A stretch of 38,924 bases of DNA from a virus (Duplodnaviria > Caudoviricetes). Under the pieces are notes generated by a model. That model made no database searches and was not told the origin of the DNA. It saw nothing but the letters and a program-made list of their open reading frames with translations. Below are positions 2,555-30,662 of this stretch, piece after piece (position 1 is the stretch's first letter; each line of letters starts with the position of its first letter). Location: IMG/VR virus record IMGVR_UViG_3300003972_000015, positions 1-38,924 of that record; one strand, given 5' to 3'. Made by a program: the position numbers and the translations under genes.

Positions 2555-2739
2555 CCAATGAAGAGGCTCTTCGCCTGGCTCGCGCGCAGCTTCAGATTCG
2601 GTACCAGCAACTCTTATCCTGCCGCATCTGTGGCGCCGACGCCAAGCGATTTGAAGAAGCCATCGAGCGAATCCGACAACTTGAACTCCAACACCGAGGG
2701 GACAGCCATGACATTCAAGTTCAGCAAAGCCAGCCTTGA
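2551..2739 (+). CDS. Small hypothetical protein with CxxC
   Basis: GTG start overlaps the upstream stop (GTGA). Helical, protein-like sequence (NEEALRLARAQLQ..CRIC..FEEAIERIRQLE). Confidence 0.45.
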   Translation: MTNEEALRLARAQLQIRYQQLLSCRICGADAKRFEEAIERIRQLELQHRGDSHDIQVQQSQP

Positions 2740-3157: not shown

Positions 3158-3160
3158 GTC

Positions 3161-3571
3161 ATGAAGGAAGAAGTAGCTAACTTCGTGAAAATGATGAGCA
3201 CTTCGACGAGCACGGGTGTGGCTACTTCGCCGGTGTTTCAGCTGCTCACCAACTACGTCAATCAGCCTGTGTGGGGCGTCCCCGTCACAGTGTTCGGTGC
3301 CTCTGCCGCCGGTGCCTGCATGTCGCTGTTCTTCGGCGACCCGCTACCGACGCGACGCGCACTGTTCGGTCAGACGCTGTCCGCCACGTTCTTCGGCGCC
3401 GCCGGAGCCGTCCTGATGTCGGACGCCATGAACTGGGAGTGGGCGAGCAAGAACATCTCGATGTTCGCCATGGTCAGCGCCGCCATGATCCGCTGGTTCC
3501 TGCCCTCAATCATCGAGCGCGGGAGGCAGCTGATCAAGGAGTTCAAGTTCCCGCTCACAAAGAAACAGTAG
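3161..3571 (+). CDS. Putative holin
   Basis: Several hydrophobic segments and a basic C-terminus; lies between endolysin and spanins. Confidence 0.6.
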   Translation: MKEEVANFVKMMSTSTSTGVATSPVFQLLTNYVNQPVWGVPVTVFGASAAGACMSLFFGDPLPTRRALFGQTLSATFFGAAGAVLMSDAMNWEWASKNISMFAMVSAAMIRWFLPSIIERGRQLIKEFKFPLTKKQ

Positions 3572-3581
3572 GAGGTGACAA

Positions 3582-3887
3582 GTGAGTATCTTAGACATTC
3601 TGATCGTCGTCGCGGCACTGCTGATCTTCCTCACAGCCGTCGCGCGCCTCAACGACATCAAGCGCTCTCAGAACAGCAAGCGGTGGTGGGTGCGGCGCAT
3701 CGGCCTGATGCTGGTGACTGTGTCGATGGTGATGGTGATCGCTTCTTACTTCACCCTCGCCACTCCGTACTGGTACCAAGTGCAGCGGTTCACTGGGCTG
3801 TGGGGCCTCGCGCTCACGTGGTTCACCACCCCGGGGATGCCGCCGTGGTGGAAGTACATCTCACGATATGACGTTGAGCAGGAATGA
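3582..3887 (+). CDS. Putative holin/antiholin membrane protein
   Basis: GTG after AGGAGGTG. 101 aa with 2-3 transmembrane-like segments, within the lysis cassette. Confidence 0.6.
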   Translation: MSILDILIVVAALLIFLTAVARLNDIKRSQNSKRWWVRRIGLMLVTVSMVMVIASYFTLATPYWYQVQRFTGLWGLALTWFTTPGMPPWWKYISRYDVEQE

Positions 3888-3888
3888 C

Positions 3889-4290
3889 ATGGCCATCACC
3901 GAGACTGTCAAGTTCATCATCGCAGTGCTCATTGGCGCTGCTGTACTGTTCGGCGTGCAGACGGTGCTGGACTGGCGCGAAGGCGCGCAGGCCGGCGAGC
4001 AGCTAAGGCGCACCGCCACCGCCATCAGCGGCATTATCAACGACGGCGCCGAGGCCGACGCGCAACGTGACACCGTCGACATGGGCATCGCCCGGGGCCG
4101 CGACAAGTTCAATAACGACTACCAAGAGGCGAAGCTCAATGAACCAGAAACTGCCGCTCGTGCTGCTCGTGTTGTTCCTGTCAGCGTGCGGAACGCATTC
4201 CGCGCGCGGCGACTTGCCCGCGAGCGATCTGCGTGCCCTGACGGCCGCTGTGTCCAGGGACCTGCGCCCGAGGATGCTACCGAACGGTAA
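3889..4290 (+). CDS. Inner-membrane spanin (Rz-like)
   Basis: N-terminal TM segment (FIIAVLIGAAVLFGV) followed by a helical region; overlaps a lipoprotein gene in another frame. Confidence 0.75.
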   Translation: MAITETVKFIIAVLIGAAVLFGVQTVLDWREGAQAGEQLRRTATAISGIINDGAEADAQRDTVDMGIARGRDKFNNDYQEAKLNEPETAARAARVVPVSVRNAFRARRLARERSACPDGRCVQGPAPEDATER

Positions 4291-4501
4291 GGAGTACTGC
4301 GCCGAGTTGGCCCGGACCGAGCAGCAGCAGGACGACTGCATGGGCGATCTGGAGGACGCCCTGTACGCTTCCAACCGCGACAAGGAACGGGCGGCGAGTA
4401 CACTACTGTCTGGGGTCGCCCGCATCGAGTGGGCCCGCAATCCCTGCCGGTGGTGGCAGTTCCGATGCCGGTCACAGCGCAAGCCGACGAACGGTAATTG
4501 A
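4139..4501 (+). CDS. Outer-membrane lipoprotein spanin (Rz1-like)
   Basis: MNQKLPLVLLVLFLSA-C signal with lipobox LSAC; starts inside the Rz-like gene. Confidence 0.8.
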   Translation: MNQKLPLVLLVLFLSACGTHSARGDLPASDLRALTAAVSRDLRPRMLPNGKEYCAELARTEQQQDDCMGDLEDALYASNRDKERAASTLLSGVARIEWARNPCRWWQFRCRSQRKPTNGN

Positions 4502-5651: not shown

Positions 5652-5680
5652 TTGCTAGGCCGCCCCCGGCGTGTTAACAT
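5652..5680 (+). promoter_or_regulatory. Putative primase promoter
   Basis: TTGCTA-17-TAACAT with extended TG, followed by ATAGAGCATAGCG and an RBS. Confidence 0.5.
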
Positions 5681-5717
5681 GGTGCCAATAGAGCATAGCG
5701 ACACCCCGAGGAAGGAA

Positions 5718-7328
5718 ATGGTAGACCAGCTAAACCTGCACCGCTTCCTCCGGCTGTTCAGGGGCAACCACCGGTCTTATGGCAGGTGGGACCCAAGCAA
5801 GCCGAAGGACAAGCAGTCCCTGACCGAGAAGAACCACGACGGGTTCAAGCCCGAAGTGATCGAGGCCGCGGTGAGAGACCACCTCGATGGTAAGATCGGG
5901 TTCGGCGCCGTGCCGATCCGGGACGACGGCAGCACTCTGTGGGGGGCCATCGACCTGGACAACCACGGGTCGGACAAGGACATCGACATCCGGGCGGTGG
6001 AGCGCCGGGTGGCCGAGAAGGGGTACCCCCTGATTCCGTGCCGCAGCAAGTCCGGCGGTGTCCACCTGTACGTGTTCTTCAGCGAGCCGGTCCGGGCGGA
6101 CATGGTCAAGACGGTGCTGGGCCGCTGGGCCAAGGAGCTGGAGGTGGATGGGGTGGACTGTATCTACCCCAAGCAGGGCAGGCTGGCGGTCAACTCGGAC
6201 GGCGTGCGCGCGCTGGGCAACTGGATCAACCTGCCGTACTACGGATCCACTGGCGGTGATGGCGCTGGCCCCCGGTTCGCCGTGTCGAACGGCAAGAAGC
6301 TGACCCTGGAGGCGTTCCTGTTACAGGCAGAGTCTCGGGCCATCGACGCCCAGACTCTGCAGAAGTACTTCTCGGACGACCTGACCGAGTTGCCCCCGTG
6401 CCTCCGAGCCCGGCTGCAGTCCGGTGGGTTCGCGCCCGGCGAGCGCAACGAGGGCACGTACCAGGTCGCCGTGTTCTGCCGCAAGCGCGACCCGGAATCG
6501 GCCCGCGATGCGGCGCATGATCTGGTCATGCGGTTCATGCCAGAGCATCCCCTGTCGTTCAAGGAGCGCGACAAGACCATACGCTCGGCGGTTGGCAGCC
6601 GCAGTAACAACTACCGCTGCAAAAGCTTTCAAGACGTGTGCGACAGGGAGGCGTGCCGAAAGCTGAAGTACGGTATCTCGGAGGGCGAGTACGAGGCGAT
6701 GACCGCCCGGGCCATGATGCCGGCGTTCCACTCGCTGATCAAGTACCGTAACGCCGAGCCGATGCGATTCGACCTGAGCGTTGGCGATGAGGAGACGTCC
6801 CGCAAGATCGAGGGGCTGACCATTGACGAGCTGGTGAGCTTCCCCGAGCTGCGCAAGGTGGTTATGGCCAAGACCCACATCGTCCTGCCGCGGCTGAAGG
6901 CCGACGAGTGGGACAAGATCCTGCGTGAGCTATTCGAGAAGGTGGTGATCGAGGACATCCCGGAGGACAGCACGCCCGAAGGCATGGTCCGTATTCGCCT
7001 GATGGAGTTCCTGCGTAAGGCGGATCTGAAGAGCGAGGGCGACAACGTCAAGGACCGAGAGGCGTTGGTCCGTGGGGTGCCGGTCGTGCAGCTCTACAAT
7101 GACGAACGGGTGGTGATGTTCAGACACGTGGACTTCGTGTCCTACCTGAACAAGACCCGCACCGACGCAATCAAGAACAAGGACCTGTGGTTCAAGGCGA
7201 GCCGGCACATGGGTGTGCAGAACACCCGGGTGCGGGTAGGCAAGAACGTGATCCCAGTATGGTTCCTGCCCCTGTCCATGATCGAAGAGAACGAACAGCA
7301 TGCGACCGACTTCACCCCAGAATACTAA
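5718..7328 (+). CDS. Archaeo-eukaryotic primase (AEP/PrimPol-type)
   Basis: WGAIDLD (DxD), SKSGGVHLY (SxH), INLPY, then a PriCT-like LPPC...GERNE segment and a Cys cluster. ATG 5718 follows GAGGAAGG. Confidence 0.8.
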   Translation: MVDQLNLHRFLRLFRGNHRSYGRWDPSKPKDKQSLTEKNHDGFKPEVIEAAVRDHLDGKIGFGAVPIRDDGSTLWGAIDLDNHGSDKDIDIRAVERRVAEKGYPLIPCRSKSGGVHLYVFFSEPVRADMVKTVLGRWAKELEVDGVDCIYPKQGRLAVNSDGVRALGNWINLPYYGSTGGDGAGPRFAVSNGKKLTLEAFLLQAESRAIDAQTLQKYFSDDLTELPPCLRARLQSGGFAPGERNEGTYQVAVFCRKRDPESARDAAHDLVMRFMPEHPLSFKERDKTIRSAVGSRSNNYRCKSFQDVCDREACRKLKYGISEGEYEAMTARAMMPAFHSLIKYRNAEPMRFDLSVGDEETSRKIEGLTIDELVSFPELRKVVMAKTHIVLPRLKADEWDKILRELFEKVVIEDIPEDSTPEGMVRIRLMEFLRKADLKSEGDNVKDREALVRGVPVVQLYNDERVVMFRHVDFVSYLNKTRTDAIKNKDLWFKASRHMGVQNTRVRVGKNVIPVWFLPLSMIEENEQHATDFTPEY

Positions 7329-9099
7329 GCACACCCGAGTTGACTACGACGACAAGCGCGGCCGGTTCATAATCAGCTGCCCGATCTGGGACAACCAGCG
7401 CGTGCGTGCGCTACCCAACCGCAGGTGGCACAAGGCCACGGGCACGTGGCACGCCCCGGCGATTAGGGCCAACATCGAGTTCATGGCCGCGATGTTCGCC
7501 GAGTCCGACACCACGGAAGTGACCGAGGCGGCCCGGTCCAAGATTGCTGGCTACATGGACTCCCGCCGCAGCCGGGCCCGGGTGTCGCAGTTCCCAGTTT
7601 TCTACGGGTTTAAGCGGCCGCCGCGTGATAAGCAGCGCGAGGCTATCGAGAAGGTATACGGCCTGCACGCGTTCGCGCTGTTCATGGACATGCGCACCGG
7701 CAAGACCAAGGTGTTCATCGACGTGGCCTGCGCCCTGCGCATGGAGGGCCGAATTGACCGGGTGATCCTCGTGTGTCCCCTGTCGCTGCGCAAGAACTGG
7801 GTCCGCGAGCTCGCCAAGGATGCCCCCATCCCGGTGGACGCTTACTTGCTGGACACCAGCAAGCCGAAGGAGTTCGAGCGCTGGATGCACACCCCGCATG
7901 ACTTCAAATGGTTGCTGGTTGGCGTGGAATCGCTGGCCGCCGGCAAGGCTGTCGATCTTGCTGAGCGGTTTGCCCTCACCTCCGCCCGGGTCTTGATCGG
8001 CGTGGATGAATCGTCGAAGATCAAGACCCACAACGCTACCCGCTCTAAGAACGCGGTGAGGCTGGCCCGGAAGTGTGAGTATCGGGGCATCATGACCGGC
8101 ACCCCGCTGACCAAGAACCCGCTCGACCTGTATATGCAGTACGAGTTCCTGGATCCCGATATAATCGGGCTGGGCGACTACTACTCATTCCGGGCGCGCT
8201 ATGCCGAAATGGGCGGGTATGAAAACCGGCAGGTAGTGGGGTACAACAACCTCGACGAGCTGGTCGAGCTGATATCGCCGTACACTTTCCAAGTACGGCA
8301 GCACGAGGTGTTCCAGCACGACAAGACCCGGGTGCTGCGTGAGGTGAAGATGTCCACCGAGCAGGCCCGGCTGTACAAGGAGCTGCGCACCAAGTCGCGG
8401 TTGGGGCTGTTGGGGTCTGACCGGGAGATGGTGGTCCAGAACGTGCTGGAGAAGTCGCTACGCCTGCAGGAGATCGCCGGCGGGTTCGTGTCTTACCTGT
8501 ACACCGAGGAGCAGCTGTCGGACCTGCGCTCGCGGCTGGGCCCGGCCAAGAAGCTCCCGCGCACCTACCGCGAGCCCATCCCTGGGCCTAACCCGAAGAT
8601 TGCGGACCTGCTCGACGCGTGCGACGAGTACGAGGGCCAAACCATCGTTTGGTGCGCGTTCAAGGAGGAGATTCACGCGGTATGCGAGGCCCTCCAGAAC
8701 AAATACGGGGAAGGCGCGGTGGTGGCCCTGCACGGTGGCGTGGACGAGGCCCAGCGCGACATCAACGTCTACGAGATATTCCAGAAGCGCAAGGCGCGGT
8801 TCATCGTCGGGAATGCGGCGACCGGCGGCATGGGCCTGACCATGGACGCGGCGGACAATATCTTCTTCTACTCCAACACTTACAACTACGTGGACCGTGA
8901 GCAGGCGGAGGAGCGCGGCACGGCGGCCGGCAAGTCCACCTTGATCGTGGACTTTGTGACAGAGGGCACGATCGATGCTGCCATCCTCGCCGCCATCGAG
9001 GAGAAGAAGGACCTGTCCGAGTACATCCGTGGCAAGATCGATGCCGCGCGCGGTAAGCCTGCCGACGCCGTGGCCGACGAGCTGTTCGGGGGCAATTGA
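7300..9099 (+). CDS. SNF2-family (SF2) helicase
   Basis: LFMDMRTGKT, VCPLS, DESSKIK, MTGTP and GGMGLTM...QAEER motifs. Confidence 0.9.
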   Translation: MRPTSPQNTKHTRVDYDDKRGRFIISCPIWDNQRVRALPNRRWHKATGTWHAPAIRANIEFMAAMFAESDTTEVTEAARSKIAGYMDSRRSRARVSQFPVFYGFKRPPRDKQREAIEKVYGLHAFALFMDMRTGKTKVFIDVACALRMEGRIDRVILVCPLSLRKNWVRELAKDAPIPVDAYLLDTSKPKEFERWMHTPHDFKWLLVGVESLAAGKAVDLAERFALTSARVLIGVDESSKIKTHNATRSKNAVRLARKCEYRGIMTGTPLTKNPLDLYMQYEFLDPDIIGLGDYYSFRARYAEMGGYENRQVVGYNNLDELVELISPYTFQVRQHEVFQHDKTRVLREVKMSTEQARLYKELRTKSRLGLLGSDREMVVQNVLEKSLRLQEIAGGFVSYLYTEEQLSDLRSRLGPAKKLPRTYREPIPGPNPKIADLLDACDEYEGQTIVWCAFKEEIHAVCEALQNKYGEGAVVALHGGVDEAQRDINVYEIFQKRKARFIVGNAATGGMGLTMDAADNIFFYSNTYNYVDREQAEERGTAAGKSTLIVDFVTEGTIDAAILAAIEEKKDLSEYIRGKIDAARGKPADAVADELFGGN

Positions 9100-9136
9100 C
9101 AGTGGGCGCCGAGTCCTGTACACTGGGACTCGGCGC
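9096..9136 (+). promoter_or_regulatory. Promoter with -10 inside an inverted repeat
   Basis: TTGACA-17-TACACT; perfect 11-bp arms at 9106-9116 and 9126-9136. Confidence 0.65.
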
Positions 9137-9168
9137 TGGTATCAGTGCATAGATCATAGAGGATTCAA

Positions 9169-9534
9169 ATGTCGCAGGCAAGGCCCCGGGTGTTCGTCAC
9201 CCAAGAGAACACGCAGCTGAACTACTCGCATGCCGAGGAGTATGGCGAGGTGGTGTTCCTGACGGCGCGCGAGGTGTCCCCGATCCCGGGGTCGCTGGCG
9301 AACGCCTTCATCATGGACGAGCTGCGCACCAAGCTCGCCGATTTCGACTTCGACAACGACTTCCTCGCCCCGTCCGGCTCGCCGGTCGTGTGCGGGATGG
9401 CGTTCCTGACCCTCGGCATGCGGCTCGGCGAACCCGGCAGCCGCGCCGGGTCCATGGCACGCCCCAAACAGCTCCGCGTCCTGCGCTGGAGCAATCGCGA
9501 CCGGCTGTACCAGCCGATCACCATCCAGCTGTAA
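9169..9534 (+). CDS. Hypothetical phage protein (alpha/beta)
   Basis: 121-aa ORF with promoter and ATAGAG motif; coding-like codon usage. Confidence 0.7.
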   Translation: MSQARPRVFVTQENTQLNYSHAEEYGEVVFLTAREVSPIPGSLANAFIMDELRTKLADFDFDNDFLAPSGSPVVCGMAFLTLGMRLGEPGSRAGSMARPKQLRVLRWSNRDRLYQPITIQL

Positions 9535-9557
9535 CCCACTAATAGAGGATAGAGAAG

Positions 9558-10163
9558 ATGTCCGAGTACGATAACGAATTCGCGAACGGCGCCAATGGCC
9601 GCTTCGACGAGGTCGAAAAGCGCTACCGCAAGGGCGGCAATCCGCGCCGTCCCCACCCCGACAAGGCCGCCGAGATCAGGGCGGCCATGCGAGTGGTCGG
9701 GGACTTCTACCGGGGCGTGGGCATCGACCCGAGCCTGTTCGACGAGGCGGGCGGCCTGTGGGAGGACATTCCGACCCTGCACCTGCTGCGCGAGTTCAAG
9801 GCCGCCAAGGATCTTAAGGAGGCGTGCGATCTGCTGGCCAAGGAGGCCGGCCGCGTGTACGACTACCTGCGACTCGCCGCGGTGCCGAACCGCTTCGAGG
9901 AGGAAGGCATCTCCAACATGAAGGTTGAGGGTGTGGGCCGCGTGCAGCTGGCCGGCGACCTGTACGCCGGCATCGTTCGCGGCCGCGAGGAAGAGGCTTT
10001 CGAGTGGTTGGATGACAACGGCCGCGGCGACCTCGTGAAGAAGACCGTGAACAGCTCCAGCATCAAGGCGGTGTTGAAGAAGATGCTCGCGGACGGCGAG
10101 GAGCTGCCCGAGGGCCTGTTCAAGGTCGAGCCGTTCACCCGCGCCAGTATCGTCAAGGCGTAA
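9558..10163 (+). CDS. Conserved phage replication-region protein
   Basis: 201 aa. The AFEWLDDNGRGDLVKKTV pattern is typical of genes preceding SSB-like genes in this kind of module. Confidence 0.7.
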   Translation: MSEYDNEFANGANGRFDEVEKRYRKGGNPRRPHPDKAAEIRAAMRVVGDFYRGVGIDPSLFDEAGGLWEDIPTLHLLREFKAAKDLKEACDLLAKEAGRVYDYLRLAAVPNRFEEEGISNMKVEGVGRVQLAGDLYAGIVRGREEEAFEWLDDNGRGDLVKKTVNSSSIKAVLKKMLADGEELPEGLFKVEPFTRASIVKA

Positions 10164-10169
10164 CAGTTC

Positions 10170-10310
10170 CATAGAGTGCGAGGGGACAGCAAAAAACATT
10201 CCGGACCACCCGCCGTGAGGCTGGCATCGTGGAAACCCCCTGACCAGTGGAGCTCCCGGGATTGCGCACTCTTCCATTGTTTGACCGGCTCCGCAGCGGT
10301 TCTGCGGTAG
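10170..10310 (+). ncRNA. Candidate structured leader RNA (possible pseudoknot)
   Basis: Nested stems AGAGTGCG/CGCACTCT, ATTCCGG/CCGGGAT and CCAC/GTGG; a GUGA-loop hairpin; crossing AGGGG/CCCCT pairing. Confidence 0.45.
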
Positions 10311-10342
10311 AACCCACCAACCAGCGAAAAGTGAGAATCGAA

Positions 10343-11107
10343 ATGGCCAAGAAGAACGAGATTGCGACCACCGAGCATAGCACCCTCCTCGTCGTGCAGG
10401 ACAGCATGCCGGACTTCCTTCGCGACAAGCAGGGCAGCGCGCGCGGTCAGGAGAACGTGGGTGCCGAGGACCTCGTCATTCCGCGCCTCGAGGTGATCCA
10501 GGACCTGAGCCCGTGCCGCAAGCGCAACGACCCTAACTACATCGAGGGCGCCGAGGAGGGCATGCTGTACAACAACGTGACTCGCGAGCTGTACGGCAAG
10601 GAAGTCCTCGTCGTCCCGGTCGGGTTCGTCAAGGAATGGTTGATCTGGAAGGACCGCGAGAAGGGCGGCGGCTTCCGGGGCGCGTTCCCGAGCAAGGCCG
10701 AGGCCGAACGCGCGCTGTCGGCGCTGGAGGACGGTGACGACTGCGAGATTGTCGATACCAACCAGCAGTTCTGCCTGCTGCTGAAGGCCGACGGCACCGT
10801 CGAGGAGATCGTCGTGTCCATGGCCAAGTCCAAGGCTAAGGTCTCGCGCAAGTGGAACAGTCTGATCCGGCTGGCCAACGGCGACAGCTTCTCGCGCGTC
10901 TATCGCCTGAGCGCGGTCGAAGACAAGAACAACAAGAACCAGTCGTTCTACAACTTTGCGGTGGCTGTCGCTGGCTACCCGAGCGAGGCGGTTTACCGCC
11001 GCGCTGAGAAGATGTACGAGGCCCTTGTACAGGGCCGTATTGTCGCCGACCGTGGCGTCGACACCTCCGGCGACGAGGGCGCCCAGCGCGACTCCAGCGA
11101 GTACTGA
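10343..11107 (+). CDS. Putative single-stranded DNA-binding protein
   Basis: DLVIPRLEVIQDLSP, beta-rich core, acidic tail ending in an aromatic residue (DEGAQRDSSEY); lies between the two helicases. Confidence 0.6.
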   Translation: MAKKNEIATTEHSTLLVVQDSMPDFLRDKQGSARGQENVGAEDLVIPRLEVIQDLSPCRKRNDPNYIEGAEEGMLYNNVTRELYGKEVLVVPVGFVKEWLIWKDREKGGGFRGAFPSKAEAERALSALEDGDDCEIVDTNQQFCLLLKADGTVEEIVVSMAKSKAKVSRKWNSLIRLANGDSFSRVYRLSAVEDKNNKNQSFYNFAVAVAGYPSEAVYRRAEKMYEALVQGRIVADRGVDTSGDEGAQRDSSEY

Positions 11108-11129
11108 TCGGGCGGGGCCCAAGTAGTGT

Positions 11130-11163
11130 GGCCCGGGGTGTGTTAGTGCGCCCCGGGCCTTTC
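11130..11163 (+). terminator. GC-rich hairpin, weak terminator candidate
   Basis: GGCCCGGGGTG/CGCCCCGGGCC stem followed by only TTT. Confidence 0.4.
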
Positions 11164-11184
11164 CATAGAGTATAGAGGACCGGC

Positions 11185-12621
11185 ATGAAGGCGTTCGCAA
11201 TTTTTGGCCCCCCCGGCACCGGCAAGACCACGGAGATGCTCCGCTTGGTGGGCGAGGCCCGGGACCGCGGCTACGGCCCTGACGAGATCGGGTTCTTTTC
11301 GTTCACCAAGGCGGCCGCGGGCGAGGCCCTGAAGCGGCTCGGCCTGACCCGATCCGACAAGGTGTCCACGCTGCACTCCCTGTGCTTCCGGTTGGTCGGC
11401 GCCAGCCCTCCGCAGATGGTTGACGGCTACAAGCTGCGCAAGTTCGGGGCGAAGGCTGGTATCCCCTTCGCAGGCGTCGCGTCTGATGAGTATGGGGAGC
11501 AGATGGAGGACGGCGACAAGTATCTGGCGCTGTACAACCTCGCACGCTCCCGACTGACTTCCCCCCGGGACGAGTACTACGCGGCCGACGACCGCCCAGG
11601 CGACTTCGCCCAGTTCAAGTACTGCATCGAGTCGTATAACAGCTGGAAGGAGGCGTACGGATACCTAGACTTCACCGACCTGCTCGAACAGTACGTGGCC
11701 CAACCCCGCAACCACGGCGCGAGGGTCTTGTTTATCGATGAGGCTCAGGACCTGTCGCCCCTGCAATGGCGGGTGATCGACCGGATGCTGGGGTTTCCGC
11801 AGGTGGACGAGGTGACGATCGCCGGGGACGACGATCAGGCGATCTACGAGTGGGCGGGTGCCGACCCCCACGGCATGGCCTCGTTCGCCTCCCGTTACGC
11901 CGGGGAGGCCCGCGTGCTGGCCCAGTCATACCGGGTGCCCCGGGAAGTCCACGAGGTCGCCCGGGGCATCGTCGTGCGCATCCGGGAGCGCGTACAGAAG
12001 CGGTACCGGCCGGCGCCCCGGGAGGGCAAGGTGGTGCAGTACGGGGCGTTTATGCCCGAGACTATCGAGCACGGGGACGACGTCCTGATCCTGTGCCGGT
12101 CCCACGCCATCCGGAAGGAGGTGGAGGGGCACCTGATCGCTGCCCGCAAGCCGTACCGCAACGAGGGCGGCCGCCCGGGCCTGTTTGAGTCCCAGTGGGC
12201 CGATGCGATCCGGGCCCTACATAAGCTGGCCCGGGGCGAGGGGGTCACAGCGCGCGAGCTGGAGGTAATGGCCAAGGTGGGCACTCGCGACACCAAGGAG
12301 GACTTGAACCGCCGTGACTTCCGTGCCATTGTGTCCAGGGGGCCCGAACGTGCTTTCAACATCCCGCTGGAGCACGTGGAGTTCTTCCGGGAGGCGGATC
12401 TGTCCCTGTCCCCCACCATTCGCCTATCCACCATCCACTCGGCCAAGGGCCGCGAGGCCCGGCGCGTCGTGCTACACTGTGGCATCACCACCCGGACTCA
12501 CGCCGCGATGGACACGAACCCAGATCAGGAGCACCGGGTGTGGTACGTGGGTGTCACCCGCGCCATCGAGCAGCTGGACGTGGTAGGCGGCTATGACATG
12601 GACTACGAGGTGATTCGGTGA
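11185..12621 (+). CDS. UvrD/Rep-like SF1 DNA helicase
   Basis: GPPGTGKTT, STLHS, DEAQD, GDDDQAIY, QSYR, TIHSAKGRE and YVGVTRA motifs. Confidence 0.92.
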   Translation: MKAFAIFGPPGTGKTTEMLRLVGEARDRGYGPDEIGFFSFTKAAAGEALKRLGLTRSDKVSTLHSLCFRLVGASPPQMVDGYKLRKFGAKAGIPFAGVASDEYGEQMEDGDKYLALYNLARSRLTSPRDEYYAADDRPGDFAQFKYCIESYNSWKEAYGYLDFTDLLEQYVAQPRNHGARVLFIDEAQDLSPLQWRVIDRMLGFPQVDEVTIAGDDDQAIYEWAGADPHGMASFASRYAGEARVLAQSYRVPREVHEVARGIVVRIRERVQKRYRPAPREGKVVQYGAFMPETIEHGDDVLILCRSHAIRKEVEGHLIAARKPYRNEGGRPGLFESQWADAIRALHKLARGEGVTARELEVMAKVGTRDTKEDLNRRDFRAIVSRGPERAFNIPLEHVEFFREADLSLSPTIRLSTIHSAKGREARRVVLHCGITTRTHAAMDTNPDQEHRVWYVGVTRAIEQLDVVGGYDMDYEVIR

Positions 12622-14462
12622 GGTATCCATCCCTTGCAAGCTACCCGCTGGTGGTCCTCGACGTCGAGACCACCGGCCTGAAGTGGTGGTCAGACAAGAT
12701 ATTTGGCATCGCCCTGAGCGTGGCCGACCGGGACATGTATTTCGACGTTCGCCGGGAGCCCGAGGCGCTGGAATGGCTGCGCGAGGAGATTCCGCGGGTC
12801 CGGCATCTGAGCAACCATAACGTCAAGTTCGACTGGCACTTCTGCCGCGAGGCCGGAATCCACTTCCCGGAAGACCGCACCACCTGCACCATGATCCGGG
12901 CGGCGCTTATCGATGAGCACCGCCTGACCTACGACCTGGACTCGTTGGGCAAAGACTACCTCGGCATGCGCAAGGACGGGGACATCTACGCGGAGCTGGC
13001 CGAGATGTTCGGCGGCCGTCCGACCCGCAACGCCCAGATTGGCAACCTGCACCGGGCCCCGCCGGAGATAGCCGGCCGCTACGCCAAGCAGGACACCCGG
13101 CTGGCGTACGCGCTGTGGCAGTGGCAGGAGGAGCAGATCGAGAAACAGGGCCTGCGGCAGGTCCATGAGCTGGAGCGCGAGTTGCTTCCGGTGGTAGTGC
13201 GCATGGAGCACGGCGGGGTCCGGGTAGACGTGGAGCGCGCCGAGCGCGCCGTGTTCGACATTGACCGCCGGGTCCAGGCCATGCAGCGCGAACTAGACAA
13301 GCTCGCGGGCTTCCCTGTGAACCCCAACCCGTCCGGGAGCATCCACCGCCTGTTCAAGCCGCGGCGCGTGCCCAGCGCGGATGGCGGCGAGCATTGGGAG
13401 GCGGTGGATGGCACCGTCCTCCCCACCACCGAATCCGGGGCTCCGTCGTTGGGCGCCGACGCCCTGCGCAGGATGAAGCACCCGGCCGCCCCGATGATCC
13501 TGAGCCTGCGCAAGATGATGAAGGCCCGGGACACGTTCCTGAAGGGGCATGTGTTGGGCAACCACCACCAGGGGGTGATCCACGCCAACATCAACCAGAC
13601 CAAGACCGAGGGCGACGCGGGCACCGGCACCGGGCGCTTGTCGATCAACTCCCCAGCGCTGCAGCAGATCCCAGCCCGCGACAAGGACGTGGCGGCCATC
13701 GTGCGCGCGGTGTTCATCCCTGACCCTGGGTGTGACTGGGTCTGCAATGACTGGGCCCAGATGGACTTCCGGGTGTTCGCCCATTACGTGAACGATCGGA
13801 ACATCCTTGAAATGTACGCCCGGGACCCCGACACCGACTTCCACAGCCTGACCGCCAGCATGACGGGATTGCCCCGATCCCCCCGATTTGCGGGCGACCC
13901 CAACGCCAAACAGATCAACCTCGGGCTGGTGTTCGGAATGGGCAAAGGCCGGCTGGCGGAGGAGATGGGCCTGCCCTACACCATCGAGCCCAACGGGAGT
14001 GGCGGCACGTGGTTGAAGCCCGGGCCGGAGGCCGAGGAAGTGTTCGCCAAGTACCACAGCGCTATCCCAGGCGTGCAGGACCTGCTGCGGGACGCCAGCT
14101 CAGTGGCCAAGCGCCGCGGCTACGTGAGGACCATCATCGGCCGACACATCAGGTTCCCGCGTGGGCAGTCCACCCACAAGGCCGGCGGCCTGATCTTCCA
14201 AGGCACCGCGGCCGACTGCCTGAAAGTAAAGCTGATCGAGCTGGACCGGCTGCTGTACAAGGAGTTTGCCGGGTCTGGGGCCAGGCTGTTGTTGAACGTG
14301 CACGACGAGTTTGACACCAGCGTGCCGCCGGATCGGGCCGACATCCGCGAGGCCATTAACCGGGTCGTGACTGCCTTTGGCCCGGGTGACCGTATCCACT
14401 TGCGCGTGCCGGTGCGCACGGATCAGGGCAGGGGACCTGATTGGTGGGAGGCGTCGAAGTAA
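12618..14462 (+). CDS. dpoZ: Family A DNA polymerase, probable DpoZ
   Basis: 3'-5' exonuclease motifs DVETTG, HNVKFD, YAKQD; TGRLS, LQQIP; motif A DWAQMDFR; motif B GDPNAKQINLGLVFG; motif C VHDE. No 5' nuclease domain. The DpoZ call rests on linkage to purZ. Confidence 0.85.
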   Translation: MRYPSLASYPLVVLDVETTGLKWWSDKIFGIALSVADRDMYFDVRREPEALEWLREEIPRVRHLSNHNVKFDWHFCREAGIHFPEDRTTCTMIRAALIDEHRLTYDLDSLGKDYLGMRKDGDIYAELAEMFGGRPTRNAQIGNLHRAPPEIAGRYAKQDTRLAYALWQWQEEQIEKQGLRQVHELERELLPVVVRMEHGGVRVDVERAERAVFDIDRRVQAMQRELDKLAGFPVNPNPSGSIHRLFKPRRVPSADGGEHWEAVDGTVLPTTESGAPSLGADALRRMKHPAAPMILSLRKMMKARDTFLKGHVLGNHHQGVIHANINQTKTEGDAGTGTGRLSINSPALQQIPARDKDVAAIVRAVFIPDPGCDWVCNDWAQMDFRVFAHYVNDRNILEMYARDPDTDFHSLTASMTGLPRSPRFAGDPNAKQINLGLVFGMGKGRLAEEMGLPYTIEPNGSGGTWLKPGPEAEEVFAKYHSAIPGVQDLLRDASSVAKRRGYVRTIIGRHIRFPRGQSTHKAGGLIFQGTAADCLKVKLIELDRLLYKEFAGSGARLLLNVHDEFDTSVPPDRADIREAINRVVTAFGPGDRIHLRVPVRTDQGRGPDWWEASK

Positions 14463-14505
14463 GCCGACGAACGGTATTGACAAAGGCCGGGCAGGCTGAT
14501 ATACT
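14463..14505 (+). promoter_or_regulatory. Boxed early promoter, copy 2
   Basis: GCCGACGAACGGTA, then TTGACA-17-TATACT with extended TG. Confidence 0.8.
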
Positions 14506-14544
14506 TTGTCTAGGGTGTATGAGAGCGTGTACGGCGACGCGTGA

Positions 14545-14581
14545 TTGACCCCCAGCCCGGCCGGTGGTACACTGGCCGGGC
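14545..14581 (+). promoter_or_regulatory. Promoter with -10 inside an inverted repeat
   Basis: TTGACC-17-TACACT; arms GCCCGGCCGGTG and CACTGGCCGGGC. Confidence 0.6.
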
Positions 14582-14610
14582 GTCATCCACATAGAGAATA
14601 GAGGTGAGCA

Positions 14611-14802
14611 GTGGAAACAATGATCGAATGCGTCGTCGAAGCGGCGCTGCAAAAGAACAAGGAAGACGGGGCCTCGTGGCAGCGGGCCATGTCGCTGTGC
14701 GAGGACGCCCAGACGGTGGTAGGGGTTCGGCTGTCCCCCGAGGAAGTCAGCGAGGCCGTTGGCCTGATTTACAGTGGCCTCGATCATGAACAAGACCAGT
14801 AA
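14611..14802 (+). CDS. Small hypothetical protein
   Basis: GTG start after ATAGAGAATAGAGGTG; 63 aa, acidic and helical. Confidence 0.6.
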   Translation: METMIECVVEAALQKNKEDGASWQRAMSLCEDAQTVVGVRLSPEEVSEAVGLIYSGLDHEQDQ

Positions 14803-14965
14803 GCTCGTATTCTTGCTCATCGGCATCGCCATCGGTCTGGCCCTGTGCGCTACCGGCACCGGCCCGGACGAGCTGGAGGTCGAGCTGCGCCAATATTGCG
14901 AAATGGTCGCGCTCAACCGCGCCGATCAGGGCGTGGGGCCCGATTGGTGGGAGGCGTCGAAGTAA
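14786..14965 (+). CDS. Small membrane protein, chimeric paralog ending in the polymerase C-terminus
   Basis: MNKTSKLVFLLIGIAIGLAL...YCEMVALNR is paralogous to 15301-15504 but ends DQGVGPDWWEASK. Confidence 0.6.
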   Translation: MNKTSKLVFLLIGIAIGLALCATGTGPDELEVELRQYCEMVALNRADQGVGPDWWEASK

Positions 14966-15038
14966 GCCGACGAACGGTAATTGCGGCCTTTGTAGGGGCA
15001 TGATATAATTTGTCTATGGTCGGGGCTCCCCCGGCCCC
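14966..15038 (+). promoter_or_regulatory. Boxed early promoter, copy 3, with leader hairpin
   Basis: Box, then TTGCGG-17-TATAAT, then a GGTCGGGG..CCCCGGCC hairpin. Confidence 0.8.
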
Positions 15039-15054
15039 AATAGAGGATAGAGAG

Positions 15055-15243
15055 ATGGCCACCCTGACCCTGACCCGTTCCCAGTACGACTTCCTTATCA
15101 ATACGAATCAGCCGCTCCTGCAGCGCGCGGTGGACGAGGCCACGGGCCGCCGCTGGTCGCTGGCTGGGGTGGAGTATGAGGGCCTTGATTGGGGCCTCAT
15201 CGAGCAGATCGAGGAGGCTGTCAGTGAAGTGGGATCGGATTGA
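15055..15243 (+). CDS. Small acidic hypothetical protein
   Basis: ATG follows ATAGAGGATAGAGAG; 62 aa. Confidence 0.7.
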   Translation: MATLTLTRSQYDFLINTNQPLLQRAVDEATGRRWSLAGVEYEGLDWGLIEQIEEAVSEVGSD

Positions 15244-15277
15244 CCTCAACGCCCGGCCGGTGATACACTGGCCGGGC
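15240..15277 (+). promoter_or_regulatory. Promoter with -10 inside an inverted repeat (upstream of the purZ operon)
   Basis: TTGACC-18-TACACT; same arms as the 14545 copy. Confidence 0.55.
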
Positions 15278-15300
15278 ACCACCTGCCATAGAGAATAGAG

Positions 15301-15504
15301 ATGAACAAACGATCCAAACTCGGATTCTTTCTCCTCGGCGTAGCCCTCGCGCTGGCAATCGCCGCGATCGGGGAGGACCCGGACGGCGCGCAAGCCGAAT
15401 TGCTCCAGTACTGCAAGATGGTGGCCCTGAACCGGCAGGACCCGGACCTCGGATGGCCCGACTTTCACGGCACCTACAACAGCGAGTGCACGACCAATGA
15501 GTAA
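15301..15504 (+). CDS. Small membrane/secreted protein
   Basis: N-terminal hydrophobic segment and two Cys; overlaps the purZ start. Confidence 0.7.
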   Translation: MNKRSKLGFFLLGVALALAIAAIGEDPDGAQAELLQYCKMVALNRQDPDLGWPDFHGTYNSECTTNE

Positions 15505-16567
15505 CTTCCAAAGCGGCAACCTGATTATCGACCTGCAGTTTGGGTCCACTGGCAAGGGCCTTATCGCTGGCTACCTGGCCGATCGAGACGCGCCCGACAC
15601 CCTCATCACCGCGTGGGCCGCGAACGCTGGGCACACCTACATCGACCGGGATGGTCGCAAGTTCGTCCACACCATGCTGGCGAATGGCATCGTGTCCCGG
15701 TCCCTGCGCCGCGTGCTGATCGGGCCGGGTTCGGTAATCGACCCGGTGAACCTGCGCCGCGAGATGGACGAGGCAGGCACCCTGATGGACGGCGTCGATG
15801 TCCTCATCCACCCCAGCGCCGCCATCATCGAGCAGCGCCACCGTGACGAGGAGGCCGGCCCGATGACCAAGATCGGGTCCACGAAGAAGGGGTGTGGCGC
15901 GGCCGCGATCCATCGCATCAGACGCGACCCGGACGACATGAACACCGCGTGGTGTGGCGGTCAGCCCCACCCGCTGCTCATCGAGCAGGGACTCGGCGGC
16001 AAGGTCGCCACCCGCGAGCAATACCTCAACGCGGTTCTCGACGCGCGCCGAATCCAGATCGAGGGCGCGCAGGGCTACAGCCTGTCGATGTACCACGGCT
16101 TTTACCCCTACACCACCTTCCGGGACGTAACCGTACACCAGGTGCTGGCAGACTGTGGGGTGCCGCTGGGGACCGGGCGCAAGCTCGTCGTGGTTGGCAC
16201 CGCGCGGACCTACCCGATTCGGGTGGCCAACCGCTTCGACGAGCAGGGCAAGCAGGTGGGGTGGTCGGGCCCGTGCTACCCGGACCAGCGGGAAATCTCC
16301 TTCGAAGAGATCGGTCAGGAGGTGGAGCTGACCACCGTCACCAAGCTTCCTCGCAGGATCTTCACCCTGTCCCATCTTCAGCTGGCTGAGGCGGTGCGGA
16401 TGAACGGCGTGGACGAGCTGTTTCTCAACTTCGTGAATTATGTGCCGAGTCCGGAGCGCCGCGAGTTCATCGCCAGAGTTCGTCAGACCCTGTCCGAGGC
16501 CGGTTCGGCTCGGCTGGCGTATCTGGGTTACGGCCCGACGCATCGCGACGTCATGGAGTGCGCGTGA
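15497..16567 (+). CDS. purZ: PurZ, N6-succino-2-amino-dAMP synthetase (adenylosuccinate synthetase paralog)
   Basis: DLQFGSTGKG has Ser where PurA has the catalytic Asp (GDEGKG). Also NAGHT, IGSTKKG, EGAQG..YPY, RTYPIRV, TTVTKLPRR, and FLNFVNY in place of the GTP-specifying TKLD. Confidence 0.93.
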   Translation: MSNFQSGNLIIDLQFGSTGKGLIAGYLADRDAPDTLITAWAANAGHTYIDRDGRKFVHTMLANGIVSRSLRRVLIGPGSVIDPVNLRREMDEAGTLMDGVDVLIHPSAAIIEQRHRDEEAGPMTKIGSTKKGCGAAAIHRIRRDPDDMNTAWCGGQPHPLLIEQGLGGKVATREQYLNAVLDARRIQIEGAQGYSLSMYHGFYPYTTFRDVTVHQVLADCGVPLGTGRKLVVVGTARTYPIRVANRFDEQGKQVGWSGPCYPDQREISFEEIGQEVELTTVTKLPRRIFTLSHLQLAEAVRMNGVDELFLNFVNYVPSPERREFIARVRQTLSEAGSARLAYLGYGPTHRDVMECA

Positions 16568-17118
16568 TGAGCGACGAATTTCGCAAGCAGGTGGAGGCCG
16601 CCCCCGGCACCGTGGGTGCGCTGCAGGCGCGGGTGTTCGAGTTTGCCGAGAAGACCTTCGGAAAGGGCCGCGAGGACGCCGCGTGGAAGAAACTGTTCGA
16701 GGAGCTGGGCGAGGTACTGAAGAGGCCCCGGGACCCGTCCGAATGGGGCGACGTGTTCATCCTGCTGCTGGATCTGGCCACCATATACGACATCAGCGTT
16801 GAAACGGCCACCCTGTCCAAGCTGGAGGCCATCCGCACCCGGGTATGGCAGCGCACCGAGACCGGGACCTTTCAACACATTCCGGGCCGCGTGGCCGAGC
16901 AGCAGTTCGAAGAGGTCCCCGCCGTCTTCATGGGAGGGGGCCCCCACGAGGACTTTTCGGCCATACGGGTGCCGGTTGGGGAGGCACCCCCGTCGGCGTT
17001 CTGCCCGCCCGGCTGGCAAGGCCCAGGGGGGTACGAGCTGCTGCGCGTGGACCGCGGGCCCGACCGCCGCAGCCACTGCGTGTACACCTGGCGGCCCGAC
17101 ATGGGGGTACCGTTCTGA
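16567..17118 (+). CDS. mazZ: MazZ / DUF550-type dNTP pyrophosphohydrolase
   Basis: TFG...KKLFEELGE....P.DPSEWGDVFILLLD...K....R.W is the DUF550/MazG-like pattern; TGATG coupling to purZ. Confidence 0.8.
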   Translation: MSDEFRKQVEAAPGTVGALQARVFEFAEKTFGKGREDAAWKKLFEELGEVLKRPRDPSEWGDVFILLLDLATIYDISVETATLSKLEAIRTRVWQRTETGTFQHIPGRVAEQQFEEVPAVFMGGGPHEDFSAIRVPVGEAPPSAFCPPGWQGPGGYELLRVDRGPDRRSHCVYTWRPDMGVPF

Positions 17119-17699
17119 TGCTACTCACCGAAAAACTGCGCGCCGGCCACGTCCGGCGTTGGCACATCGTAGCGATGGCCCGTGAGCAGACGGTTGCCGA
17201 GCACATGTACCGGGTGGGCGTTATCGCCGAGGAGATCCTGCGCATCATTGGCCGGTTCAACTGGGACGACAACCTCACCCTGAACACCATGCGATGGGCC
17301 ACTATCCACGACCGGCATGAGTTCCTGCTCGGGGACCTGCCGACGCCTGGCAAGGACGCCTTGCGCGCCGCCGAGTCGGCCACCGGGGCGGGGGCCATCG
17401 CTCGCGCCTGTGCGGCCATCGACCCGGAGGCCGAGGAGCTACGGCAGTGCGTCAAGCCGGGCGGCGAGTGCCCGCTGGCCGGGTATATCGTCAAATATGC
17501 CGATTTGCTGGAGGCCGTGAACTACGTCGGCATCTTCGGCTGTGGTAGCCACGCCCGGGAGGTGTGGCGTGGCCTGCGGGACTCGGCCGAGGCGGCGTGT
17601 GACGCCGTGGCCCGAGCCGCGGGTGGCCTCGATCCTCATCAGGAGCAGCAGCTGCGCAGCCTGCTGCATGTTTTGGCTGAAGGAACCCAGTGGAAATGA
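17118..17699 (+). CDS. datZ: DatZ, HD-domain dATP triphosphohydrolase
   Basis: VRRWH...QTVAEHMYRV, IHD.HE...GDLPTP.K and IVKYADLLEA; TGATG coupling within the purZ operon. Confidence 0.85.
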   Translation: MLLTEKLRAGHVRRWHIVAMAREQTVAEHMYRVGVIAEEILRIIGRFNWDDNLTLNTMRWATIHDRHEFLLGDLPTPGKDALRAAESATGAGAIARACAAIDPEAEELRQCVKPGGECPLAGYIVKYADLLEAVNYVGIFGCGSHAREVWRGLRDSAEAACDAVARAAGGLDPHQEQQLRSLLHVLAEGTQWK

Positions 17700-29123: not shown

Positions 29124-29138
29124 CGAGGAACCTGCGCC

Positions 29139-30659: not shown

Positions 30660-30662
30660 GCC

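What the first reader, a model, noticed from the sequence alone, without database searches (positions are those of the whole stretch)
12618..17699. Complete 2-aminoadenine (Z) genome system: dpoZ, purZ, mazZ, datZ
PurZ carries the diagnostic Asp-to-Ser change (GSTGKG) and the NFxN motif of ATP/dATP-using PurZ. It is translationally coupled to a DUF550/MazZ-type pyrophosphohydrolase and an HD-domain DatZ, just downstream of a PolA. In the established pathway, MazZ supplies dGMP, PurZ with host PurB and kinases makes dZTP, DatZ removes dATP, and DpoZ favours dZTP. The virion DNA therefore probably uses Z:T pairs and evades restriction at A-containing sites. The system is described in other phages (S-2L, phiVC8, SH-Ab 15497); whether this lineage or host is new cannot be told from the window.
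Basis: partly seen in the sequence, partly recalled or inferred. Interest (0 to 1): 0.85.

Follow-up and report, generated by a model that had tools for sequence, protein, structure and literature searches.

The report
Z-DNA kit on borrowed phage virion
This compost phage carries the four known genes that likely replace all adenine in its DNA with 2-aminoadenine, and it carries them on a head-and-tail gene set about 82% identical to that of two cultured phages that lack the system and are predicted to modify cytosine instead, which would give a natural matched pair for comparing the two DNA chemistries.

Summary
Confirmed, and a known system. dpoZ and purZ pass NCBI's curated cut-offs (824/500 and 352/300 bits). 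All four proteins match the solved phiVC8 or S-2L enzymes best and keep every published catalytic and Z-specificity residue. Virion DNA is therefore very likely Z-substituted; chemistry untested. Corrections: dpoZ lies 1,034 nt upstream of purZ, separated by promoters and four small ORFs, including a strain-specific 503-bp insert; PurZ F208 is private to this strain; Z blocks only about half of tested restriction enzymes. The added finding is context. The head-tail module is 82% identical over 11.3 kb to Stenotrophomonas phage AXL3 and Pseudoxanthomonas phage PW916, which have no purZ and carry a predicted cytosine-modifying module. The replication half is 78% identical to uncultured phage G054, which has another head. 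Contigs from other studies bridge both joints, and composition marks this lineage as the recombinant. Horizontal spread of Z machinery is already proposed in print; this is a close matched pair. Host probably Xanthomonadaceae, not new for purZ (BUCT555).

The parts
12618..14462 (+). dpoZ, phiVC8-like family A polymerase with 3'-5' exonuclease domain, no 5'-3' exonuclease; GTG start overlaps the uvrD-like helicase stop
   Evidence: NF038380 824 bits, cut-off 500; 7PBK E 3e-133; L435, F439, G524, R420, R137, I141 and the three DpoZ insertions
14419..14921 (+). 503-bp strain-specific insert: a second dpoZ 3' end, a promoter, ORF 14611-14802 and the 5' part of a small membrane-protein gene
   Evidence: skipped by one contig in each of 4 of 4 runs laid (joint 14418>14922); 62-nt direct repeat 14415-14476 / 14918-14979, 90%
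14463..14505 (+). promoter repeat copy with sigma-70-type hexamers (11 of 12)
14611..14802 (+). small ORF of unknown function inside the insert
   Evidence: no family
14786..14965 (+). chimeric 59-aa ORF: first 47 aa as in P0026/P0027, last 12 aa the old dpoZ tail
14966..15054 (+). promoter repeat copy with hairpin and ribosome-binding motif
15055..15243 (+). small ORF of unknown function
   Evidence: no family
15240..15269 (+). promoter-like site (9 of 12) directly upstream of the 15301-purZ-mazZ-datZ run
   Evidence: consensus match only
15301..15504 (+). 67-aa ORF with a hydrophobic N-terminus, overlapping the purZ start by 8 nt; also precedes purZ in G054 and L178
   Evidence: phrog_6168 E 8e-7
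15497..16567 (+). purZ, ATP/dATP-type succino-amino-deoxyadenylate synthase
   Evidence: NF038379 352 bits, cut-off 300; 7ODX E 3e-89; S17, T279, V243, R286, N311/F312/N314; F208 private to this strain
16567..17118 (+). mazZ (MazZ-1/DUF550) with a ~75-aa C-terminal extension of unknown function; no DUF5664 fusion
   Evidence: PF04447; 7ODY E 5e-14; K42, E45, E46, E49, E59, D62, I65, D69, R92; PF18909 absent, controls positive
17118..17699 (+). datZ, HD-domain dATP triphosphohydrolase
   Evidence: PF12917, phrog_7076, 6ZPA E 3e-12; 15 of 15 S-2L key positions identical, including W15, I17, P77
17696..18394 (+). ORF coupled to datZ (4-nt overlap); N-terminal 115 aa DUF1599/Nmad1-like; possible fifth nucleotide-pool enzyme, unproven
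   Evidence: (named row TM 0.81/0.88); fold searches inconclusive
5652..12621 (+). rest of the Z replication module: AEP primase, SF2 helicase, three Pam3 gp32-34-like proteins, UvrD-like helicase
   Evidence: syntenic in PMBT28, PSA28, SH-Ab 15497 and G054
27591..38919 (+). head-tail module 82% identical to AXL3 and PW916 (context)
2699..4393 (+). lysis cassette 72-74% identical to AXL3 and PW916; similarity ends inside its last gene, 90 nt before the first promoter repeat (context)

Best explanation
The region encodes a complete phiVC8/PMBT28-type 2-aminoadenine kit (dpoZ, purZ, mazZ, datZ) that likely makes the phage's DNA with Z in place of A, and this kit sits in a replication half that was likely recombined onto the virion genes of an AXL3-like phage predicted to modify cytosine instead. 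Mechanism, each step shown for homologues and inferred here: MazZ-1 cuts dGTP to dGMP; PurZ joins dGMP and aspartate using ATP or dATP; host lyase and kinases finish dZTP; DatZ strips dATP to deoxyadenosine and spares dZTP; DpoZ prefers dZTP, with the module's own primase and helicases. The result would be Z:T pairs genome-wide and partial escape from host restriction. Shown here: gene content, residues, coupling, the mosaic and its occurrence in other samples. Inferred: enzyme activities, Z in virions, a Xanthomonadaceae host, the direction of the swap.
For: Curated cut-offs passed. Best solved-structure hits are the Z enzymes. Residues named in PMC8342488, PMC8599892 and PMC8065100 are kept. 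PurZ groups with G054 and L178 (SH-aLRT 99) on the PurZ side, apart from the two PurZ0 rows (quick tree). The four genes travel together: among 64 IMG/VR purZ loci, DpoZ 57, MazZ 63, DatZ 60. All four are intact in near-identical strains from other assemblies. PMBT28 purZ+mazZ+datZ, with PurZ 54% identical, put dZ into E. coli plasmid DNA (abstract of PMC12944874). Mosaic: blastn to AXL3 covers only 2705-4393 and 27591-38919; no purZ in AXL3 or PW916, control positive; replication half 78% to G054, whose portal is 34% and capsid 53%; joints bridged in X2, X3, X22; halves differ in dinucleotide signature, delta* 92, p 0.0005, against 7-45 in five control genomes.
Against: No chemistry or enzyme assay. 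PurZ has F at 208 where 63 of 64 IMG/VR loci and the three sister strains have S, next to dGMP-pocket residues. MazZ has F for S-2L W15 and I for N80, which are W in 61 of 62 and N in 62 of 62 IMG/VR rows, though G054 shares both changes. The window shows no depletion of G/C-only 6-mer palindromes (observed/expected 1.01) whereas PMBT28 and PSA28 do (0.16). The DpoZ paper states that its signature residues each occur in non-Z polymerases, so they do not prove specificity. No single outside contig runs from datZ to the terminase; the 20.3-24 kb stretch between them is variable. PW916's halves also differ slightly (45, p 0.035), and the window's replication half is not identical in signature to G054's virion half (54, p 0.015). 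No second record pairing this capsid with purZ was found (0 of 50 records).
Confidence: 0.87

Rival explanations
1. The kit is genuine but weakened in this strain, giving partial A-to-Z replacement, because of PurZ F208 or the altered MazZ pocket.
For: F208 (codon TTC at 16118) is private: S in P0002-P0004 and G054. No G/C-only site avoidance.
Against: Y occurs at this column in L053 and in 2 of 55 motif matches in the metagenome loci, and S-2L has A, so the site tolerates change. DatZ is fully conserved and would remove dATP, so weak dZTP supply should lower yield rather than allow A (inference). S-2L's stretch also shows no G/C-only avoidance (1.02).
Confidence: 0.08
2. The synthetase is an auxiliary PurA, or a GTP-using PurZ0, and the DNA is ordinary or made by the PurZ0 route.
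For: It scores on Pfam PF00709 and weakly on PurA models.
Against: S17 in place of the PurA Asp; NFxN where the PurZ0 rows Wayne and Frizzle differ; PurA models far below cut-off, PurZ above; DatZ next door would destroy dATP.
Confidence: 0.02
3. The pairing of Z module and AXL3-type virion is a chimeric assembly of two phages.
For: The record is a linear metagenomic contig, 84% complete. In X2 and X7 the first 4.4 kb is about ten times deeper than the Z module.
Against: The head-tail module has about the same depth as the Z module in 4 of 4 runs; the deep relative shares only tail tip and lysis genes. X3 record 20 runs 26030-38924, from G054-like DNA into the AXL3-like head; X2 record 5 runs 3962-20350; X3 record 14 runs 2017-8270.
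Confidence: 0.04
4. History ran the other way: the common ancestor had Z, and AXL3/PW916 replaced it with a cytosine-modifying module.
For: G054 carries Z and shares tail (tube 67%) and lysis genes (53-69%) with the window, as an outgroup to window+AXL3+PW916.
Against: AXL3 and G054 are each uniform in composition (39 and 17), the window is not (92); its virion half resembles AXL3's non-homologous replication half (39, p 0.09). The promoter repeat is confined to the window's non-AXL3 half, with 5 copies in G054 and none in AXL3 or PW916.
Confidence: 0.2

Closest known systems
Z cluster of Salmonella phage PMBT28, Pseudomonas phage PSA28 and Acinetobacter phage SH-Ab 15497
   Same: Same gene order from primase to datZ; PurZ 49-54%, DpoZ 49%; same key residues.
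   Different: Their MazZ is fused to DUF5664 (PF18909); here it is not and has a C-terminal extension. Four small ORFs and promoters replace the single gene between dpoZ and purZ. A DUF1599-like ORF follows datZ. Different virion (capsid 46% to PMBT28).
Vibrio phage phiVC8 (DpoZ 7PBK, PurZ 6FKO) and cyanophage S-2L (PurZ 7ODX, MazZ 7ODY, DatZ 6ZPA)
   Same: Catalytic and specificity residues and the three DpoZ insertions.
   Different: No MazZ-1 hit in the phiVC8 stretch, no DpoZ hit in the S-2L stretch; S-2L uses PrimPol (PMC8065100). DpoZ has E564 for phiVC8 S583, as in PMBT28 and SH-Ab.
Stenotrophomonas phage AXL3 (Axeltriavirus) and Pseudoxanthomonas phage PW916
   Same: Head-tail module 82% nt, capsid 91-92%, portal 82-85%, endolysin 85-87%.
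   Different: No purZ, mazZ or datZ; unrelated polymerase (25%); replication genes on the opposite strand; dCMP deaminase, thymidylate-synthase-like enzyme, kinase, NTP pyrophosphatase, methyltransferase and ThyX instead; different tail tip. Whole-window similarity only about 24-27%, so not the same genus by the usual ~70% rule (rule recalled).
Uncultured phage G054 (48,468 bp, direct terminal repeats) and locus L178
   Same: Closest Z modules: DpoZ 85%/77%, PurZ 73%/66%, same promoter repeat, same MazZ extension, same DUF1599-like ORF.
   Different: Different head module (portal 33-34%; G054 capsid 53%, no terminase hit).
Stenotrophomonas phage BUCT555
   Same: purZ, DUF550, polymerase in a Stenotrophomonas phage, so the predicted host family already has a purZ phage.
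   Different: PurZ only 42%; phiVC8-like gene order; groups with phiVC8 and Bm1.

Membership tests
PurZ (ATP/dATP type) | Score above the curated cut-off of NF038379 | tested here: met
   352.4 bits, cut-off 300
PurZ (ATP/dATP type) | Ser in place of the PurA catalytic Asp (S-2L S23, phiVC8 S14) | tested here: met
   S17; feature from PMC8342488 and PMC12884076
PurZ (ATP/dATP type) | Adenine-binding N305/F306/Q308 (phiVC8 F295, N297, Y298) | tested here: met
   N311, F312, N314, Y315
PurZ (ATP/dATP type) | dGMP pocket: N49, A50, T132, R146, Q190, T205, R240, V241, T273, R280 | tested here: met
   all identical; the neighbouring position 208 is an unusual F
PurZ (ATP/dATP type) | Makes dSMP from dGMP, aspartate and ATP | not testable with these tools
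   needs assay
PurZ0 (GTP type) | Falls in the PurZ0 clade and lacks NFxN | tested here: not met
   NFVN present; Wayne and Frizzle differ there and branch apart
PurA | Catalytic Asp13 and curated cut-off | tested here: not met
   Ser; TIGR00184 102.6 against 395.55
DpoZ, phiVC8-like | Score above the curated cut-off of NF038380 | tested here: met
   824.2 bits, cut-off 500
DpoZ, phiVC8-like | L455, F459, G548 and three polymerase-domain insertions | tested here: met
   L435, F439, G524; insertions 2 and 3 present and absent from R5C; insertion 1 present but also in R5C and AXL3
DpoZ, phiVC8-like | Intact exonuclease motifs with R161/M165 equivalents | tested here: met
   DxE, NxxFD, YAxxD; R137, I141
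DpoZ, phiVC8-like | Prefers dZTP over dATP | not testable with these tools
   needs primer extension; residues alone do not prove it (PMC8599892)
MazZ-1 (DUF550) | Metal ligands E35, E38, E50, D53, plus R83 and guanine-specificity I56, D60 | tested here: met
   E46, E49, E59, D62, R92, I65, D69; PF04447 36 bits, cut-off 23
MazZ-1 (DUF550) | Other pocket residues W15, N80 | tested here: not met
   F26 and I89, shared with G054; not named as defining in PMC8342488 part read
MazZ-1 (DUF550) | dGTP to dGMP activity | not testable with these tools
   needs assay
DatZ | W20, I22, P79 and metal/phosphate residues R19, H34, H66, D67, E70, D75, K81, K116, D119 | tested here: met
   15 of 15 positions identical to S-2L; features from PMC8065100
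DatZ | dATP-specific triphosphohydrolase | not testable with these tools
   needs assay
Z-genome phage | dZ replaces dA in virion DNA | not testable with these tools
   contigs carry no base-modification signal
Axeltriavirus (AXL3 genus) | High genome-wide nucleotide similarity and shared replication module | tested here: not met
   13,018 of 38,924 bases aligned, about 27% identity over the window
DUF1599/Nmad1, MazG-like fold (ORF 17696-18394) | Profile or structural match | tested here: inconclusive
   no Pfam hit; Atlas named row meets its bar; Foldseek MazG-like rows only at E > 1, VIA top Z 8.1 to generic hairpins

The most novel reading that the evidence does not exclude
One virion, two opposite DNA chemistries: a single recombination event moved an entire 23-kb Z replication half, with its own promoters, primase, helicases, DpoZ and nucleotide-pool enzymes, onto the capsid, packaging motor, tail and lysis genes of a cytosine-modifying AXL3-type phage. 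The virion half still carries the AXL3 compositional signature and is drifting away from it (A/T-only palindromes returning, substitutions 2.5 times faster than in sister L081). The DUF1599-like ORF behind datZ may be a fifth pool enzyme standing in for the missing DUF5664 (about 0.2 on its own).
Probability: 0.55. Interest if true: 0.58.

Novelty: new member of a known kind. Interest (0 to 1): 0.42.

Why it matters
The pathway is established, so another carrier adds little. The context adds a usable natural experiment: AXL3 and PW916 are cultured, AXL3 DNA is cut only by two A/T-only enzymes of 37 tested (PMC7504290), and this phage is predicted to have the complementary protection on nearly the same particle. 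The pair would let one ask what switching DNA chemistry costs or gains against one host family's defences, whether one packaging motor and capsid handle both, and how a genome re-adapts after the switch. It puts breakpoints on the horizontal spread of Z machinery that PMC12884076 infers from gene-sharing networks, and suggests the unit of transfer is the whole replication half, which fits reports that matched helicase and SSB raise dZ incorporation (bioRxiv 2025.10.22.683976, PMC12944874).

Tried and rejected
Restriction-site avoidance as support for Z: no G/C-only 6-mer depletion in the window (1.01) and mixed values in the comparators (0.16, 0.16, 0.30, 0.83, 1.02 among Z-cluster phages; 0.99 and 0.89 in AXL3 and PW916), so not diagnostic. 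My first reading, that a ten-fold more abundant AXL3-like sister shares the whole virion in X2 and X7, was withdrawn: one search shows the extra depth only over tail tip and lysis genes and part of the accessory region, and the loose end at 4393 does not match AXL3 or PW916. Dating the swap by four-fold-site identity failed; sites are near saturation. A directional mutation bias on the window's branch against L081 was not found (Fisher p 0.85). A second record with this capsid and purZ: none among 50 of the 64 purZ loci's records (control 4 of 5); capsid and endolysin scans of IMG/VR gave only short close fragments or distant hits. L029's apparent match to ORF 14786 was only the dpoZ tail. Fold searches for ORF 17696 gave no clear match, and its family also occurs in phages of Gordonia, Rhodococcus and Arthrobacter, none of the 40 listed of 61 records being among the top purZ hits. 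The PurZ tree is the quick one; its row labelled MaF61_PurA has Ser and is not a PurA, so the tree has no PurA outgroup. Three look-ups of earlier findings returned nothing. Paper searches for PurZ+Stenotrophomonas, Axeltriavirus, 2-aminoadenine+Xanthomonas and module exchange found nothing on this pairing; the library lacks most subscription journals.
Full report
What is there. The window is most of a siphovirus genome (IMG/VR linear record, 84% complete; G+C 63.7%), all called genes on the + strand: tail tip and lysis (1-4500), replication (5652-19949), small accessory genes, then terminase, head and tail (27128-38924). purZ, mazZ, datZ and ORF 17696 are coupled by 1-, 1- and 4-nt overlaps.

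Family tests. The polymerase scores 824 bits on NCBIfam phage_DpoZ_1 (cut-off 500) and the synthetase 352 on amino_Aden_PurZ (cut-off 300); PurA and ordinary Pol I models stay far below their cut-offs. Best solved-structure hits are phiVC8 DpoZ, S-2L PurZ, S-2L MazZ and S-2L DatZ. I took the defining residues from the structure papers (PMC8342488 part 2 of 6; PMC8599892 parts 2-3 of 6; PMC8065100 passages; bioRxiv 2025.10.22.683976 results parts 2-3 of 3) and read them off alignments with cultured references, G054 and the 64 IMG/VR loci. PurZ keeps S17, the dGMP pocket and N311/F312/N314; the PurZ0 rows differ at the last motif. DpoZ keeps L435, F439, G524, R420, R137, intact exonuclease motifs and the three insertions, though insertion 1 is also seen in the non-Z rows. 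MazZ keeps all metal ligands and the guanine determinants I65 and D69. DatZ matches S-2L at 15 of 15 positions. Departures: PurZ F208 (S in 63 of 64 IMG/VR rows and in 3 of 3 sister strains; Y in L053), and MazZ F26 and I89, shared with G054. There is no DUF5664 in the window or G054, while PMBT28 and SH-Ab 15497 have it (2 of 4); the window lacks 16% of the genome.

How it most likely works. By homology with the published pathway (PMC12884076 introduction; PMC8342488): MazZ turns dGTP into dGMP, PurZ makes dSMP with ATP or dATP, host enzymes finish dZTP, DatZ removes dATP, DpoZ copies with a preference for dZTP. None of these activities was measured here. Protection is partial: 53% of 147 restriction enzymes were blocked or partly blocked (abstract of PMC12944874). 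The cluster is common: PurZ-like matches in 206 of 50,697 cultured-phage records, PurZ0 types included, and DpoZ, MazZ and DatZ beside purZ in 57, 63 and 60 of 64 IMG/VR loci.

Between dpoZ and purZ. The 1,034-nt gap holds four small ORFs. A 14-nt motif followed by sigma-70-type hexamers occurs 6 times in the window (0.03 expected), twice here. Bases 14419-14921 are skipped by a contig in 4 of 4 other runs. The insert brought a new dpoZ end and a promoter, and its last gene is fused to the old dpoZ tail: P0025 equals the first 47 residues of P0026 plus the polymerase's last 12. This is ordinary accretion of small cassettes and leaves dpoZ intact.

The mosaic. Searching with the head genes gave 3 records covering at least 80% of the query: AXL3 twice and PW916, at 83-84%. 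Against AXL3, blastn aligns only 2705-4393 (72%) and 27591-38919 (82%). Neither phage has purZ (control PMBT28 positive), mazZ or datZ. Their replication halves point the other way and encode dCMP deaminase, a thymidylate-synthase-like enzyme, kinase, NTP pyrophosphatase, methyltransferase and ThyX. AXL3 gp28 hits CMP 5-hydroxymethylase best and has Asp where thymidylate synthase has Asn (that this site sets cytosine specificity is recalled knowledge). AXL3 DNA was cut by 2 of 37 enzymes, both with A/T-only sites (PMC7504290 passages); the PW916 paper passages report no such test. So these phages are predicted to modify C. The promoter motif found G054, a complete 48.5-kb record whose replication half is 78% identical over 9.2 kb and 74% over purZ-datZ, with DpoZ 85% and PurZ 73%, but portal 34%, capsid 53% and no terminase hit. 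L178 is a third member; the three form a clade in a quick PurZ tree of 44 rows (SH-aLRT 99). The nearest cultured PurZ is 54%.

Is the join real. 22 runs in 13 studies hold part of the stretch; one may be the source. I laid four others from four studies (labelled soil, compost, compost, unlabelled). On the lysis side X2 record 5 runs 3962-20350, X3 record 14 runs 2017-8270 and X22 record 8 runs 1920-5000; on the head side X3 record 20 runs 26030-38924, starting in G054-like DNA, and X2 records 5 and 6 overlap across 25406-33583. Depth over Z module and head module is about equal in 4 of 4 runs. No outside contig spans datZ to terminase. X7's listed pieces bridge neither joint.

Direction. Dinucleotide distance between virion and replication halves is 92 in the window (block permutation p 0.0005) against 39, 45, 17, 16 and 7 in AXL3, PW916, G054, PMBT28 and PSA28. 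The window's virion half is close to AXL3's non-homologous replication half (39) and far from G054's (73); its replication half is nearer G054's virion half (54) than AXL3's replication half (131). The promoter motif is confined to the non-AXL3 half and is absent from AXL3 and PW916. I read the window's lineage as the recombinant; the opposite history keeps about 0.2 because G054 shares tail and lysis genes as an outgroup. Weaker, after-the-fact signs of drift: 21 A/T-only 4-mer palindromes in the virion module against 3 and 3 (Fisher p 0.007 and 0.004; some overlap, so not independent), 12 against 1 in the 95%-identical fragment L081, and 150 against 61 polarised substitutions, which recombination could also explain.

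Host. Endolysin 85-87% to AXL3 and PW916 and tail tip 48-52% to Xanthomonas and Stenotrophomonas phages point to Xanthomonadaceae. That is inference, and not a first: BUCT555 of S. maltophilia carries purZ and DUF550.

A possible fifth gene. ORF 17696-18394 follows datZ here, in G054, L178, 6 of 64 IMG/VR and 3 of 56 metagenome loci. The Atlas places its N-terminus with DUF1599/Nmad1; my model (pLDDT 88, four helices) found no clear solved fold, and the family occurs in other phage groups. A lead only.

Comparison with print. PMC12884076 (abstract, introduction, results part 3 of 3, discussion) already reports at least seven groups of Z phages, five linked to canonical-DNA phages, and infers horizontal transfer. 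Four searches found no paper on this pairing. The 2021 Science papers and the PurZ0 paper were not available to me and are recalled only; supplements were not read and those of PMC12884076 may list related genomes. PMC11946847 was seen as passages, PMC13128860 as abstract.

Verdict. Observation confirmed, interpretation supported, pathway known. New member of a known kind in an uncultured three-member clade, with a well-supported mosaic that makes a matched pair with cultured non-Z phages. Interest 0.42.

Noticed in passing
window 4483, 14463, 14966, 19964, 25120, 25719; G054 five copies; L178 9110 and 18610; G055: Conserved 14-nt motif directly upstream of sigma-70-type -35/-10 hexamers, often followed by a hairpin and a repeated ribosome-binding motif; it marks cassette boundaries and may be a regulator site and recombination seed.
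   Followed up: partly
window 27128-27571: Only the last 31-35 residues of the small terminase match AXL3/PW916 and G054 gives no hit, so the crossover seems to leave the DNA-binding part of TerS non-AXL3.
   Followed up: no
window 1-4393 in runs X2 and X7: A relative about ten times more abundant shares only tail tip and lysis genes and diverges at 4393; its identity is unknown.
   Followed up: partly
window 6-2201: The tail tip has no hit in AXL3 or PW916 but 48-52% to Xanthomonas phages Langgrundblatt, Pfeifenkraut, Suba and Stenotrophomonas phage Sonora: a third module source.
   Followed up: partly
window 16891-17118; G054; L178 11089-11940: MazZ C-terminal extension of about 75 aa, no family; 47% in G054 and visibly similar in L178, whose MazZ also has an N-terminal HNH-like stretch (by eye).
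   Followed up: partly
L079 24050-28084 and 39667-40515 (AXL3): gp28, annotated thymidylate synthase (dUMP hydroxymethyltransferase in PW916), looks cytosine-specific, with ThyX supplying dTMP and a SAM methyltransferase nearby; the modified base is uncharacterised in the passages read.
   Followed up: partly
window 20300-24100: Hypervariable run of small genes built from shared short repeats; X22 has a contig that skips 3,605 bp (20347>23953).
   Followed up: no
L007, L008 (PMBT28, PSA28); G054: PMBT28 and PSA28 almost lack GATC (2 and 3 against about 205 expected) and G/C-only 6-mer palindromes; G054 lacks CCGCGG, GGATCC, CTCGAG, GAGCTC.
   Followed up: no
window 19158-19949: DEDDh exonuclease (exodeoxyribonuclease X-like) behind the Z cluster, shared with G054 (65%) but in only 1 of 64 IMG/VR purZ loci.
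   Followed up: no
L236 (Flavobacterium phage MaF61): A divergent synthetase with Ser at the PurZ site and NFxN in a 168-kb phage, between scaffold and terminase genes.
   Followed up: no
window 4762-4829: 9-nt tandem repeat encoding a Lys/Ala/Pro-rich linker in ORF 4583-5125, a gene shared with many Z phages (30 of 64 loci).
   Followed up: no
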